DNA from: Chrysomallon squamiferum
Taxonomy: Eukaryota; Animalia; Mollusca
Assembly (NCBI GenBank): GCA_012295275.1
Contig: CM022666.1
Span: 15,438,001-15,502,000, forward strand
Reading direction: 5' to 3'
DNA: 64,000 bases
Made by a program: the position numbers and the translations under genes. The notes under the pieces were generated by a model that made no database searches, was not told the DNA's origin, and was given only the letters and a program-made list of their open reading frames with translations. Below are positions 6,101 to 12,100 of this stretch, piece by piece (the stretch's first letter is position 1; each line of letters opens with the position of its first letter).

Positions 6101-9100
6101 TAATAACTTATCAAATATTTTAATAGCCAAAACCTTTATAACATATGTTAACAGATAAAATTATTAAAATATATATATATATAAAATTATAAAATATTTT
6201 AATAGATAAACTGATTTTGTTATTCTTTAAGGCTACTTAAACATCTGTTTATAAAGATATTTAAAATCTGTAGATTAAAACAGAAATATTGTTACAACAA
6301 CAAACTATTATTTTACACTTCATACTACTTACAGATGTATAGATATTTTTTGGGGTGGGCAGCACTACTGATAAAACTGTTTTAGTATGAAGGAGACAAT
6401 CCTCCTTTAGACAAGGTTCCTCCTCCTGAGGTTTGGAAACTCTCCTACTGAAGTTTGGACACCATTCTGCCATGTTTGGTTGAAACTGAGGCTTAACACA
6501 CTTGAATCATTCTGTGATAGTTACATACCAACATAACAGAAGATTTATTAAACTCCCAAACTACACTTTGCAGAAATGCCCCAGGAAAATTGTGACTTGA
6601 TCTACAGTAGCACAAATGTAAAAAATACCGAAATAAAAATTCATTTACAAGATCTACCAAAACACAGATGTCAAAAAATACCGAAATAAAAATTCATTTA
6701 CAAGAACTACCAAAACACAGATGTCAAAAAATACCATAGAACAGTTCTGAAATCAGTTAAATGGCCTACCAACATACAGACACCAAACACACTGCAGTAA
6801 GTAATGATTATGCAGAATACACCTGTGAAGTGTGTAATGGAGAGCCTGGTTGCTGTCATCCTGCTACACATTAGAAACTACACATTAGAAAACAAAAATC
6901 ACAGAACTGACATTTCACAGACTTAAAAAAAAGAAAAAGAATTAGCATGTGTATTCAACAAGTCTCATGTTAATCTACCAAAAAAAAAAAAACGTTTTGG
7001 ATTTCTTTTTGTTGCTAAAAAAAAATAACAATAATAATAACAACAACATCATTAACAACGGAAATAAAATAGATTTTTATAAACTTTCTTGTCTCTCTGT
7101 CTCTGTGTCAGGGTTTCTATAAATGTATATCTCAGCCATTTATGTTTCTGATAAACTCTTCAATAAAAACACTATTAAACAGTAAAAATAAAAGCTGCAT
7201 AACAACACAGAATAGTAAAAACAAATTCATAAAAGAATATATATATATATTTAAATAATTTTTCACATAACTCTGAAATATAACATAAGAAATAATAATT
7301 ACTGTTCCTGCTTAAATTCAAGATATACAGTATTTATAACTTCTGGTTTTGAATTATGGTATTTTCAGACATTTCATTTCTAAACAAACTTTTATTGAGA
7401 ATGAATATGGTATTAAACCTTCACCCATTCAAAAATACTCACATACCAAATATGATTACAAAAAAAAAAAAAAAAAAAATTAAAAATTAAAAAAAATTAA
7501 AAAATTAAAGCAGTAGGTATCAAGCAGCATAAAACAGGTACCAGACATTTTCTCAGCTTCAACTTATTAATTTTAGAAGTTTATTAATTTGTAACTGTTA
7601 ATACTGAACTTTACTTTTTGTTGTTGACTTTACATTTCAAGTCTGTATTAAACTTTGGCTCAGAAAATGGTAAAATAAAGAAATCCAGGTCATTTTCAGG
7701 TCTGACTTTGTGATTAAATCATCTGGTACCTGTATAAAACAAGTGGGGCAGGCACCATAACTGAAAAAGCTCAGAAAAAAAAAAAAAAAAAAAAAAAATA
7801 ATAATAATAATAATAACAAAATAAATTTAACAATATTTTTGTTTTTTCCATTTTCAAAAAAACTTTTTTTACTGGAAGGCTACATTGAAAGAGAAAATAT
7901 TACAAACCTATTGTTATTTTATATAAACTTTATTAGCAGTGAAAAAACAAACAAAAAATAAAAACAAAAATAAATAAATAAAATAAAAAATATAATAAGT
8001 AAAAAACAAAATAAAAAGAATATGAAAATAATAATTAAATTAAGCACAATAAAATAAAATAATATAAAATAAAATGTTTGTTTAAGAGTCACAGAGTTAA
8101 TGCTTGTGGTGCACATGAAGAATGTTAATTAGAAAAATGTATTCCACTGTTACAGAAAAGCAAATCACCTGTCCACCATTACTTGTAGCAAAAATTCTGT
8201 GTCGCCCCCCACACTGAGTAATATACCATATAAACCAAAGAGTGGACGACTCGTAAGAGTGGGCAGTTACAAAACCCTGGACAAAGAGGTCCATGAATGC
8301 ACGCACTGCTCTACAAATAAACATATGACGAACACTGTTTAATGTACTTATGGCAGTATGTATTATATGGTCTTATTAAAAATTAAAAAAAAATAAATAA
8401 ATAAATAAATAAAAAAATAAAAAATATAAAATATAAAATAAAAATCTTTATATTTACAAGTTATTTGGTACAAGTTATTTGATACAAGTGACCTATCATT
8501 GGTGACAAATTGTTACACAACATAAATGCCGATGTTGGACATCTTCACAGTTGTGGCTGTGGTGTTGACATCTATGCAGCAGACCAACTGCTGTGGGTTT
8601 TTTTTTTCAGTTTACCAATTACATTTGTGTTGTGTTTAGAATTTAAAAGAAAACAAAAAAGAAGTAGAAGAAGAAAAAAATAAATGGAAGAAAATGGTCG
8701 AATGTATCTTCACAACTGCGGTTGTGACATTTTTCAGTTTACCAGTCATATCTGTGCTCTGATTTGAATTTAACTAATTAAGTAAGTAAATAATTTAAAG
8801 ACGTAACTAAGTAAATAAGTAACTAACTAAGTACAGGAATAAATAAATAAACAGGTGATCTATGTCACAAATGTTTATTATGGAATTACTGGTCTACAAA
8901 TTAAAGTAAATATATCTTCATGTAGCAGCATTTATAAATTATTTTAAAACTTTAAAACTTTTTTGAAAATAGATTACTAACTTAAAACAAACGGGAAAAA
9001 AAAAAAAAAAAAAAATGAAAGAAATTAAATAAATAAAATGAAAAAAAAAATAATATATAATAATAATAATATTACATTAAAATAAAATAATAATAAAAAT

Positions 9101-12100
9101 ACCAATAAAAAAATTTAAAAAGGAAAGAAAAAAAAAAATAAAATGATGTGGCAAATGAAGATGTATAAGAAATATGCTCTTCTAAAACAAAAGAAAAAAA
9201 TATATTTTCTGATTTGATTCAAATAAATTCTATCAAGAAACCACTGTGAACACCTCACATAGCACTAATACTCTTTTAAAATTAAACTTTAATTTTACTT
9301 TGAATTCAGTGTTGTGTCTACCATTCAATAACACTAAATCATAAAATACTTTTCTTTTTGTACCCAAGTTTTAAGTGCTAGGATATTTTCAGTAACAACG
9401 TAACAGAAATAACTGTTTTAAAGAAAGAAAAAGGAAACAAACAGATACAAGTCGACAAAAGTGATACACTTTTAAATACACACATGTGTACACACATCTA
9501 AATACACTTATACACATATAAACAGTGTTACAGAATTATAAAAATCTGTAAATTAATAAAATGCCAATGGCTGATGTTCCCATGGTAACTCACTACTATA
9601 ATAATAAAGCTACACCAGCTCAATAAAATACATCGACTGTTTTGTCTGAAGTGTTAATTTTACACATGTACACACACACATTAGTGATCAAATGATTTTT
9701 TTTTCAAAAGATGCCAATAAGAATTCATAAGATTAGCAGCAATAAAATAAGGTCAAAACTGGCATACTAAAAGAAGATATACTAGCACTAATGTATCTAT
9801 ATACAAACAATTTAGAAAAGAAAACAGAAAAGAAGAGGCTGTAGATAAAACGACAATAAAATACTGTATTGAAATATTATTTGCAAAATGTCACATCAGA
9901 TTAGAAACACAGCAAACTTCTGCTGTAAAATCACAAACAGGTTTTAATACCTTTCACGTCATTACTTGATAATTGAAATATAAACACACTGTCACTCTAA
10001 ATGTGGATCCATGGAATTATTATTACTTGATTTATTAAAATAGGCATGCTAAAATATAAGTAAAATTATTTAAAGGATGTGATAAAATGCTAAATGAAAT
10101 AACAGAATAGAAAGTTGTTAAAATGATTAAATAATCCTACAAAAAAAAAAAAAAAAAAAAAAAAAAAAAACAATAGTAAAAACTAAACAAATTTTAAAAT
10201 ATAAATACAAAAATTTTAATTTTTTTTTTTTAGAAATTCCCAAAAAATATAAAAATGACAGTAGGAAACTGTAGTAAAAAAAATGTTTAATATGAACTAA
10301 CAAAATGCTGATGGCCAAAATATAATTTGAAAATTATGACATTTGTTACACAATGCAAATGGTCAAAAACTATCCACCAAAATACAAATGCTGAAAAGTG
10401 TAATATTACAGAATTCATTTTTACGACTTATCAAGATGCAAATGGCAAAAGGTAGCAGTGATTGGTTATTATAGCAAATTAGTGAAGTTATTAATGAATC
10501 AATCACCTGTCCACCATTAGTGATTGCCATAATTCTATTGGAACCGCCACACTGAGACACATACCATAAAAACCAGAGCAGTGAGACTTCGTGAGGTTCA
10601 GAAGTGACATTTACCTCAACAAACATATTCAACATACCTCGTATTATTCTACAAATAAACACACAAAATATAATCTAGCTGATGTTTGCACCTTTTTCTT
10701 TTCTTTTCTTCTTAATTATTTATTTTAGTAATTTTTTCATTTTTTTTTTTTTTTTTAATTAATAATAATAATAATAATAATGACAATAAGAAGAATAAAA
10801 ATAACAACAATGACAATAATAACAACAACAATTATCATAATTTTAAAATGTCTTTCTTTTGTATTCCATTTGACCTTAACTTTTAAAAAATCCCTTCCAT
10901 CTTTGCCATGATTTGCAAAACACAATTTAATGTAAGATTTAACCTTATTTCTGAAAGAAGATGAAAAAAACTATAAGCAATATCAGACAAAATCATAAGA
11001 CAGACAACATTATATTACATTTTTAAATAGATAACTGTTTATAACAAGACAAACAACACAGTGATATAACATCATACAAAATTCACAACATCAAATCAAA
11101 GTATTTAAAGCGTATAAAGTCTGTGACATAATTTTCAGTATTTAAATAGATTAAAAAAAGATAGTGTCACTTCTTTTAGAATTTTTAGTGTGTGTGTGTG
11201 TGTGTGTGTGTGTGTGACATTATCAGTTTAAAGTAATTAATGTCAATATTCTAAATTTCAAAACTGTTATATCCAATATATGACAATTTTAATAAGTCAG
11301 GTATTTTTTTAGCAAATATTATTGATAATTATCATCATTTGAAGGTGATTAAATATTGGGTTTTTAAAAAAAAATATTTTAACTGAAGATCAATTTAGAA
11401 TCATTTCAGTAAATATATGTCAGTGATTTTAAAATTTCATGGTTCTAATTTTTCAAACAAATCTGTATGCATTTTTATTACTATGATCATTACTACTTGA
11501 AGATATTTCTAATACTTATTACCACAATTTGAAAGTTTTTGGACAAGACCATATGAAGCACAAAACAGGTGGAACCACAACAACGACGAGATACAAACAG
11601 TTTCAGATTTTAACCTGTCCTCCATTTGTTGTACCAAAGATTCTCATGGACCCTCCAGCACCCTTAACATACCACAAGAGCCACAACATGGACACTTCAT
11701 AGGGTTCTGAGGTAACGTTAACCTCTATGAACTGTCTACAGAAACTGCTGGCACTTCTGTGTAGCAGCATTAAGAAAATAGCAGGGCACATTATAAAATA
11801 ATTAATTTAAAAAAATTAAAAAAAATAAAAAAAATGAGAGGAGAGAGAAATAAAATCTAAATTGTTGCCAAGTTACTCGTTCAAGAAGATCACACACACA
11901 CACACACACACACACACACACACACACACACACACATATTTGAAGAATGAATAATGTATAAAATCATTCAGAAATCATAGAAGAAAAAAAAAAATGTTTT
12001 TCTTTTAAGTTTTTGTGCAGAGTGAAAACATCAAGAATTTTTTTAACAAATACACGTACATACATCCATCCATCCATCCATCCATCCATCCATCCATCCA

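What the first reader, a model, noticed from the sequence alone, without database searches (positions are those of the whole stretch)
8169..11756. The swapped exon carries the MAO substrate-cavity and gate residues, and these differ among variants
Known (recalled numbering): the 47 codons align without gaps to human MAO-B 160-206. That span includes cavity residues Leu171, Cys172, Tyr188, gate Ile199 and Gln206 (MAO-A Ile180, Asn181, Phe208, Gln215). Seen at positions 171/172/199: 6A = V/N/F (MAO-A-like), 6B = V/N/M, 6C = G/F/F. 6C also has Arg-His at 195-196, while Tyr188 and Gln206 are invariant. The partner specificity residue (MAO-B Tyr326, MAO-A Ile335) is Phe in constant exon 10 (LIGFCLDD). 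Inference: the isoforms share the FAD machinery but have different pockets, so may prefer different amines; 6C is the most remodelled.
Basis: partly seen in the sequence, partly recalled or inferred. Interest (0 to 1): 0.75.

Follow-up and report, generated by a model that had tools for sequence, protein, structure and literature searches.

The report
Swappable active-site exon in mollusc MAO
This snail's gene for monoamine oxidase, the enzyme that breaks down neurotransmitter amines, carries three interchangeable copies of the exon that lines the substrate pocket; abalone, oyster, mussel and scallop gene models show the same swap, so one gene likely makes several enzymes that are predicted to prefer different amines.

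Summary
Observation confirmed; interpretation partly supported. Three 142-nt copies of exon 6 align without gaps to human MAO-B 160-206 and read V/N/F, V/N/M and G/F/F at 171/172/199. Only one copy at a time keeps the frame. RNA contigs join exon 5-6C-exon 7 in 4 of 4 runs (one study), and their length implies that 6B is spliced too. The cassette is not peculiar to this genome: in 10 mollusc species, equal-length RefSeq isoforms differ only inside this exon, and gate residue 199 differs in 9 of 11 species. 6C, including Gly171/Phe172, is conserved in Gigantopelta aegis (42/47). Corrections: constant Phe326 gives 6A and 6C a double-aromatic gate like the MAO-B I199F mutant, not MAO-A; cavity sites are no more variable than the rest of the exon (5/9 vs 25/38); Met199 of 6B is not kept in its orthologue. 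Different amine preference remains inferred (about 0.7). I found no paper describing this in four targeted searches, although the isoforms sit in automatic annotations. It is a new variant of a known kind (homologous mutually exclusive exons).

The parts
19423..19471 (-). MAO coding exon 1 (ATG, start of the FAD-binding GxGxxG motif)
14315..14409 (-). exon 2 (constant)
13801..13938 (-). exon 3 (constant; Tyr60 equivalent)
13419..13523 (-). exon 4 (constant; entrance loop, Phe in place of Trp119)
12796..12887 (-). exon 5 (constant; donor shared by the three exon-6 copies)
   Evidence: its last 23-29 nt are joined to 6C in RNA contigs
11615..11756 (-). alternative exon 6A (V171/N172/F199; F164, Q167)
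   Evidence: 40/47 identical to Haliotis rufescens isoform X2; junction not seen directly in this species
10507..10648 (-). alternative exon 6B (V171/N172/M199; M164, M167)
8169..8310 (-). alternative exon 6C (G171/F172/F199; F164, L167; R195-H196)
   Evidence: spliced exon 5-6C-exon 7 in 4 of 4 RNA runs; 42/47 to G. aegis isoform X1
4942..5005 (-). exon 7a (constant; acceptor shared by the three copies)
   Evidence: joined to 6C in RNA contigs
3879..3967 (-). exon 7b (constant)
3209..3368 (-). constant exon with Lys296 equivalent
2552..2648 (-). constant exon with the partner gate residue Phe326, Ala316 and Ser314
2089..2200 (-). constant exon (Phe343 equivalent)
1460..1557 (-). constant exon with Cys397 (covalent FAD site) and Tyr398
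568..679 (-). constant exon with Tyr435; the C-terminal exons lie outside the window

Best explanation
One monoamine oxidase gene holds three homologous copies of the exon that lines the substrate pocket; 6C is spliced in alone, 6A and 6B likely are too, and the three resulting enzymes share the FAD core but are predicted to prefer different amines. Shown: each copy alone gives an open 451-codon frame; none, two or three copies give an early stop, so mixed transcripts would likely be destroyed (inferred). Shown: the constant part keeps Cys397, Tyr398, Tyr435, Lys296 and has Phe326/Ala316. Inferred pocket types: 6A is likely the generalist for hydroxylated amines (polar Asn172, rigid Phe199/Phe326 gate, as in the MAO-B I199F mutant); 6B would have a flexible Met199 against Phe326, the MAO-B-type gate that admits longer ligands; 6C trades Val-Asn for Gly-Phe at 171-172, which keeps the volume but removes the polar contact near the flavin, so it likely favours non-polar amines such as phenethylamine over serotonin or dopamine. 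The cassette is likely old: gastropods and bivalves both use it, most often to change gate residue 199.
For: Frame test. RNA contigs with exon 5 on one side of 6C and exon 7a on the other in 4 of 4 runs of one study; the 188-nt contig in 3 of 4 runs is the length expected if a 6B-exon 7 junction coexists (195 with 6A alone, longer with neither). All 12 equal-length isoform pairs from 10 species differ only within positions 160-206. Position 199 differs within the gene in 9 of 11 species and 5 of 5 lineages, while 77 of 81 vertebrate MAOs hold Phe. 6C is as conserved in G. aegis (42/47) as the constant part (228/258). pN is below pS between the copies (0.29-0.41 vs 0.58-0.80). In 254 distinct homologous segments all 7 with an aromatic residue at 172 have Gly/Ala/Ser at 171, against 40 of the other 247. 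The model of the G. aegis 6C isoform has the MAO fold (pLDDT 84, TM 0.87-0.89). 172, 199 and 326 are named as the main MAO-A/B pocket differences (PMC12223828, passages), and I199F blocks cavity-spanning inhibitors (PMC6442233, passages).
Against: No enzyme data. Cavity sites are not enriched among the differences (5/9 vs 25/38, P = 0.70; across lineages P = 0.80). Met199 is not kept in the 6B orthologue, and in G. aegis and H. asinina the listed isoforms all have Phe199. Outside 6C and its orthologue, 172 is Asn in all listed isoforms of the other 10 species. The passage read on I199F reports inhibitor binding, not substrate kinetics. Vertebrate MAOs with different gate pairs overlap widely in substrates (PMC11833248, Table 1). 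6A junctions were not seen in this species. Contigs give no isoform ratios or tissues. The models gave no coordinates, so side-chain positions rest on sequence alignment to human MAO. The 7 aromatic-172 sequences are not shown to be independent.
Confidence: 0.7

Rival explanations
1. The exons are real alternatives, but selection acts on turnover, stability, dimer contacts or tissue regulation; the pocket changes are tolerated drift and amine preferences overlap.
For: No enrichment at cavity sites; 160-167, 191, 195, 196 and 202 vary in as many lineages as 199. 6B's Met199 is not conserved. The 171-172 swap is volume-neutral (254 vs 250 cubic angstroms, recalled side-chain volumes). Tarpon MAO A/B and MAO F differ mostly in rate (PMC11833248, Table 1).
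Against: Gly171/Phe172 is kept in G. aegis and removes an Asn present in 39 of 42 mollusc exons. 199 goes from aromatic to Asn, His or Gln in abalone, scallop, oyster and mussel alternative exons.
Confidence: 0.2
2. 6C has left neurotransmitter turnover: it is a weakly active form or handles dietary, symbiont-derived or environmental amines.
For: 6C sits on a long branch (0.57) yet is conserved between two relatives. It was seen only in this genome and G. aegis among the mollusc proteins retrieved. It is present in all four RNA runs.
Against: All catalytic residues are constant and intact. No substrate or tissue data. This reading is partly compatible with the best explanation.
Confidence: 0.08
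3. One or two copies are decaying pseudo-exons left by local duplication.
For: In the oyster cluster, 10 of 10 listed Logan proteins carry the default exon.
Against: Intact frames and splice sites, pN below pS, an orthologue for each copy, direct 6C junctions and the 6B signature.
Confidence: 0.02

Closest known systems
[quoted passage not shown]
   Same: Same fold, same catalytic core, and the same positions 172/199/326 set pocket shape (PMC12223828).
   Different: Vertebrates vary the pocket between duplicated genes; here one gene swaps an exon. The 199/326 pairs Phe/Phe (6A, 6C) and Met/Phe (6B) occur in none of 82 vertebrate MAOs retrieved (76 Phe/Leu).
RefSeq isoform sets of mollusc MAO: Haliotis rufescens XP_048246548-50, Gigantopelta aegis XP_041355932/XP_041355941, Mytilus, Pecten, Argopecten, Mizuhopecten, Crassostrea gigas
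   Same: Same exon is swapped; orthologues of 6A (Haliotis X2), 6B (G. aegis X2) and 6C (G. aegis X1).
   Different: These are automatic gene models named only 'isoform X1/X2/X3'; Met199 was seen only in this genome among the mollusc set, Gly171/Phe172 only here and in G. aegis.
Homologous mutually exclusive exons (Lam et al. 2021, PMC7954323)
   Same: Duplicated exons that keep the fold and change residues at or near functional sites (abstract).
   Different: That survey of five organisms does not mention monoamine or amine oxidase (0 hits); its variable residues are mostly surface-exposed, whereas here they include buried active-site walls.
MAO F of non-tetrapod jawed vertebrates (PMC11833248)
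   Same: A further MAO with a changed gate pair (Phe/Met) and a measurable change in inhibitor response.
   Different: A separate gene; the paper has no occurrence of 'exon', 'splic', 'mollus' or 'invertebrate'.

Membership tests
Animal monoamine oxidase (MAO-A/B type flavin amine oxidase) | Amino_oxidase domain PF01593 and MAO fold | tested here: met
   Pfam on the orthologues P0279 and P0154; fold search of the 6C orthologue, TM 0.87-0.89; window exons hit only MAO chains, 13 of 13. The spliced window protein itself was not scanned.
Animal monoamine oxidase (MAO-A/B type flavin amine oxidase) | Covalent-FAD Cys397, aromatic cage Tyr398/Tyr435, Lys296, N-terminal GxGxxG | tested here: met
   Mapped through squirrel MAO-B P0271; motif in exons 1-2.
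Animal monoamine oxidase (MAO-A/B type flavin amine oxidase) | C-terminal membrane helix | not testable with these tools
   Encoded outside the window and no genome is held; the G. aegis orthologue model has a helix at 345-372.
Animal monoamine oxidase (MAO-A/B type flavin amine oxidase) | Oxidative deamination of monoamines | not testable with these tools
   Needs enzyme assay.
MAO-A subtype | Asn181, Phe208 and Ile335 together | tested here: not met
   6A has Asn and Phe but Phe at the Ile335 position; 6B and 6C lack a second feature.
MAO-B subtype | Cys172, Ile199 and Tyr326 together | tested here: not met
   No copy has Cys172 or Ile199; 6B (Met199/Phe326) only resembles the aliphatic/aromatic gate.
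Homologous mutually exclusive exons | Tandem homologous exons of equal length and phase; frame kept only with exactly one | tested here: met
Homologous mutually exclusive exons | Transcripts that include one copy between the same flanking exons | tested here: met
   Direct for 6C, indirect for 6B, by orthologous RefSeq isoforms for 6A.
Homologous mutually exclusive exons | Dscam-type docking/selector RNA pairing (one of several possible mechanisms; recalled) | tested here: inconclusive
   The 25 longest of 548 inverted repeats are simple repeats; duplex scores of acceptor flanks do not beat 5 shuffles each. No related genomic DNA was available for a conservation test.

The most novel reading that the evidence does not exclude
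Molluscs reached the MAO-A/MAO-B division of labour by exon shuffling inside one gene: an active-site cassette duplicated before gastropods and bivalves split, was kept in both classes, and is repeatedly retuned at the gate residue, with the Gly171/Phe172 form of this snail and Gigantopelta defining a new amine specificity.
Probability: 0.4. Interest if true: 0.78.

Novelty: new variant of a known kind. Interest (0 to 1): 0.6.

Why it matters
It offers a splicing-based counterpart to the vertebrate MAO-A/MAO-B gene pair, and a natural experiment: isoforms that are identical except for 47 residues of the pocket wall. Work on mollusc MAO (neuro-immune regulation in bivalves, PMC6282093 passages) treats it as one enzyme; if isoforms differ, assays, primers and inhibitor results need re-reading by exon. 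The Phe/Phe and Met/Phe gates and the Gly-Phe swap also test current ideas on what sets MAO selectivity.

Tried and rejected
No whole genome is held, so flanking exons and paralogues could not be searched. Single-exon word searches found nothing because the query is too short. The ESM Atlas gave only unrelated hits at 0.78. An alignment of window exons on P0091 was mis-aligned and not used. A multi-exon read laying was not obtained, so only 6C was laid and 6A/6B junctions remain unseen. The low-confidence dip at the end of the exon in the 6C model (pLDDT 58-72) also appears in the 6B-orthologue control (54-73), so it reflects the missing N-terminal part of these fragments, not 6C. Docking/selector pairing was not found. 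Enrichment of variation at cavity sites was tested and not found. Exon trees on 47 columns are poorly resolved. Cephalopod clusters showed one exon type (2 of 2 Octopus, 6 of 6 in the Sepia cluster), weak evidence of absence. The primary paper on the gate mutants (Milczek 2011) is not held. Earlier findings of this scan: none bears on this locus.
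Full report
What is there. The window holds a minus-strand monoamine oxidase gene from 19471 down past 568; the last exons lie outside it. Between exon 5 (12796-12887) and exon 7a (4942-5005) stand three 142-nt exons, 6A (11615-11756), 6B (10507-10648) and 6C (8169-8310), each with AG and GT ends and the same phase. With exactly one of them the frame is open for 451 codons; with none, two or three it meets an early stop in all 5 such combinations. 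The closest named protein retrieved is from the gastropod Gigantopelta aegis (88-89% identical in the constant part), then abalones (75-77%), so the source is a gastropod; I did not try to place it further.

Checking the residues. 6A and 6C align without gaps to human MAO-B up to Gln206 and MAO-A up to Gln215, and 6B aligns without gaps to both. The readings V/N/F, V/N/M and G/F/F at 171/172/199 are correct, as are invariant Tyr188 and Gln206 and the constant Phe at 326. A review lists Leu164, Leu167, Phe168, Leu171, Ile199, Ile316 and Tyr326 as entrance-cavity residues and names 172, 199 and 326 as the main differences between MAO-A and MAO-B (PMC12223828; section 1.3 and passages). Positions 164 (F/M/F) and 167 (Q/M/L) therefore differ too. 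Including Tyr188, Ile198 and Gln206 in my nine-position cavity set rests on docking passages in PMC6080100.

Are the exons used? RNA contigs of four runs from one study cover 6C exactly, with loose ends that match the end of exon 5 and the start of exon 7a in 4 of 4 runs. In 3 of the 4 a single 188-nt contig spans both junctions. Simulated assembly with 31-letter words (word length assumed) gives 188 nt only if a 6B-exon 7 junction is also present, 195 nt with 6A alone. This is indirect evidence for 6B. Contigs give no ratios.

It is a mollusc-wide cassette. A search with a Haliotis rubra MAO listed 120 of 609 hits; I opened 10 mollusc clusters. Eleven species had two or three RefSeq isoforms. 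In ten of them (two abalones, three scallops, C. gigas, four mussels) all 12 equal-length pairs differ only within positions 160-206; the eleventh, G. aegis, has N-terminally short models carrying orthologues of 6C (42/47) and 6B (31/40). H. rufescens X2 matches 6A at 40/47. Cephalopod clusters showed a single exon type. AU tests on 36 of 48 exon sequences reject one clade for the window's copies with G. aegis (p = 0.028) and for all gastropod copies (p = 0.003), and are borderline for the mussel pair (p = 0.054). These groups were named after I had seen a first tree, the alignment has 47 columns, and convergence could mislead, so an origin before the gastropod-bivalve split is likely but not shown.

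Do the differences target the pocket? Overall, no: 5 of 9 cavity positions vary among the three copies against 25 of 38 others (P = 0.70), and across five lineages the means are 2.4 and 2.7 (P = 0.80). Two signals stand out. First, gate residue 199 differs within the gene in 9 of 11 species and in 5 of 5 lineages, typically Phe or Tyr against Asn, His or Gln, while 77 of 81 vertebrate MAOs keep Phe; ten other positions also differ in all five lineages, so this is not unique to 199, and the Met of 6B is Phe in G. aegis. Second, Gly171/Phe172 occurs only in 6C and its orthologue among 42 distinct mollusc exons, 39 of which have Asn172. Among 254 distinct homologous segments, all 7 with an aromatic 172 have a small 171, against 40 of 247 others; their independence was not tested. 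The swap is nearly volume-neutral (recalled volumes), and the orthologue's model keeps the MAO fold.

A correction. Human MAOs pair one aromatic and one aliphatic gate residue (Phe208/Ile335, Ile199/Tyr326; PMC11833248 section read). Here 326 is a constant Phe and 316 an Ala, in all 11 species with isoforms. 6A and 6C therefore have two aromatic gate residues, like the MAO-B I199F mutant (2bk4), which impedes cavity-spanning inhibitors (PMC6442233 passages). 6B, with Met/Phe, is the one that resembles the MAO-B arrangement. None passes as MAO-A or MAO-B.

How it most likely works. Shown: single-copy inclusion keeps the frame, 6C is spliced so, the catalytic core is constant. Inferred: frame-shifted double inclusions are degraded, since the introns are 966-3163 nt and no pairing elements were found; 6A is the generalist, 6B has a looser gate, 6C has a more hydrophobic pocket favouring non-polar amines. 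I put about 0.95 on real alternative exons and 0.7 on measurably different substrate or inhibitor profiles.

Novelty. Homologous mutually exclusive exons near functional sites are a known kind (PMC7954323, abstract and passages; no mention of amine oxidases). Searches for monoamine oxidase with 'mutually exclusive exon' (13 papers, 12 listed), with mollusc and alternative splicing (9), with exon duplication (0), with oyster splice variant (0), and two broader mollusc searches (15 of 64 and 20 of 68 listed) showed, by titles and abstract starts, no description of this cassette. Subscription journals and supplements were not searched, including the original oyster and scallop MAO cloning papers. 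The isoforms do exist as automatic RefSeq models.

Noticed in passing
window 28154-29455 and 46434-47654 (+): Two near-identical single-exon RING/B-box (TRIM-like) reading frames about 18 kb apart, each followed by a similar ORF (30955-31668; the copy at 49178-49812 is interrupted by a stop); looks like a recent segmental duplication.
   Followed up: partly
window about 43570-43770: A run of N (assembly gap) inside the duplicated region.
   Followed up: no
window 13419-13523 and 2552-2648 (-): Constant entrance-cavity changes relative to a mammalian MAO-B: Phe for Trp119, Val for Pro102, Ala at 316; these would widen the entrance in all three isoforms.
   Followed up: no
window 8303-8310 region, run X1: Paired contigs differing by one letter near the 5' end of exon 6C, probably an allele, plus low-depth contigs that run on into the intron.
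   Followed up: no
window 10649-10660 and 8311-8322; donors at 10506 and 8168: 6B and 6C share the last 12 nt of the acceptor flank and the first 6 nt of the donor, unlike 6A; suggests a later 6B/6C duplication or a shared splicing element.
   Followed up: partly
P0173, P0183, P0185, P0190 (Babylonia, Pomacea, Littorina): Caenogastropod MAOs have non-aromatic residues at 326 (Val, Ser, Ile, Asn), and three of these four have Asn199; a different route to pocket change.
   Followed up: no
P0304 (Mytilus galloprovincialis VDI35724): An 838-aa model with about 320 extra N-terminal residues that look like an aldose epimerase (recognised from memory) before the MAO; probably an annotation fusion.
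   Followed up: no
window 3879-5005 and 2089-2200 (-): Exon 7 is split in two and two exons are fused relative to the human MAO gene structure (human exon sizes recalled, not checked).
   Followed up: no
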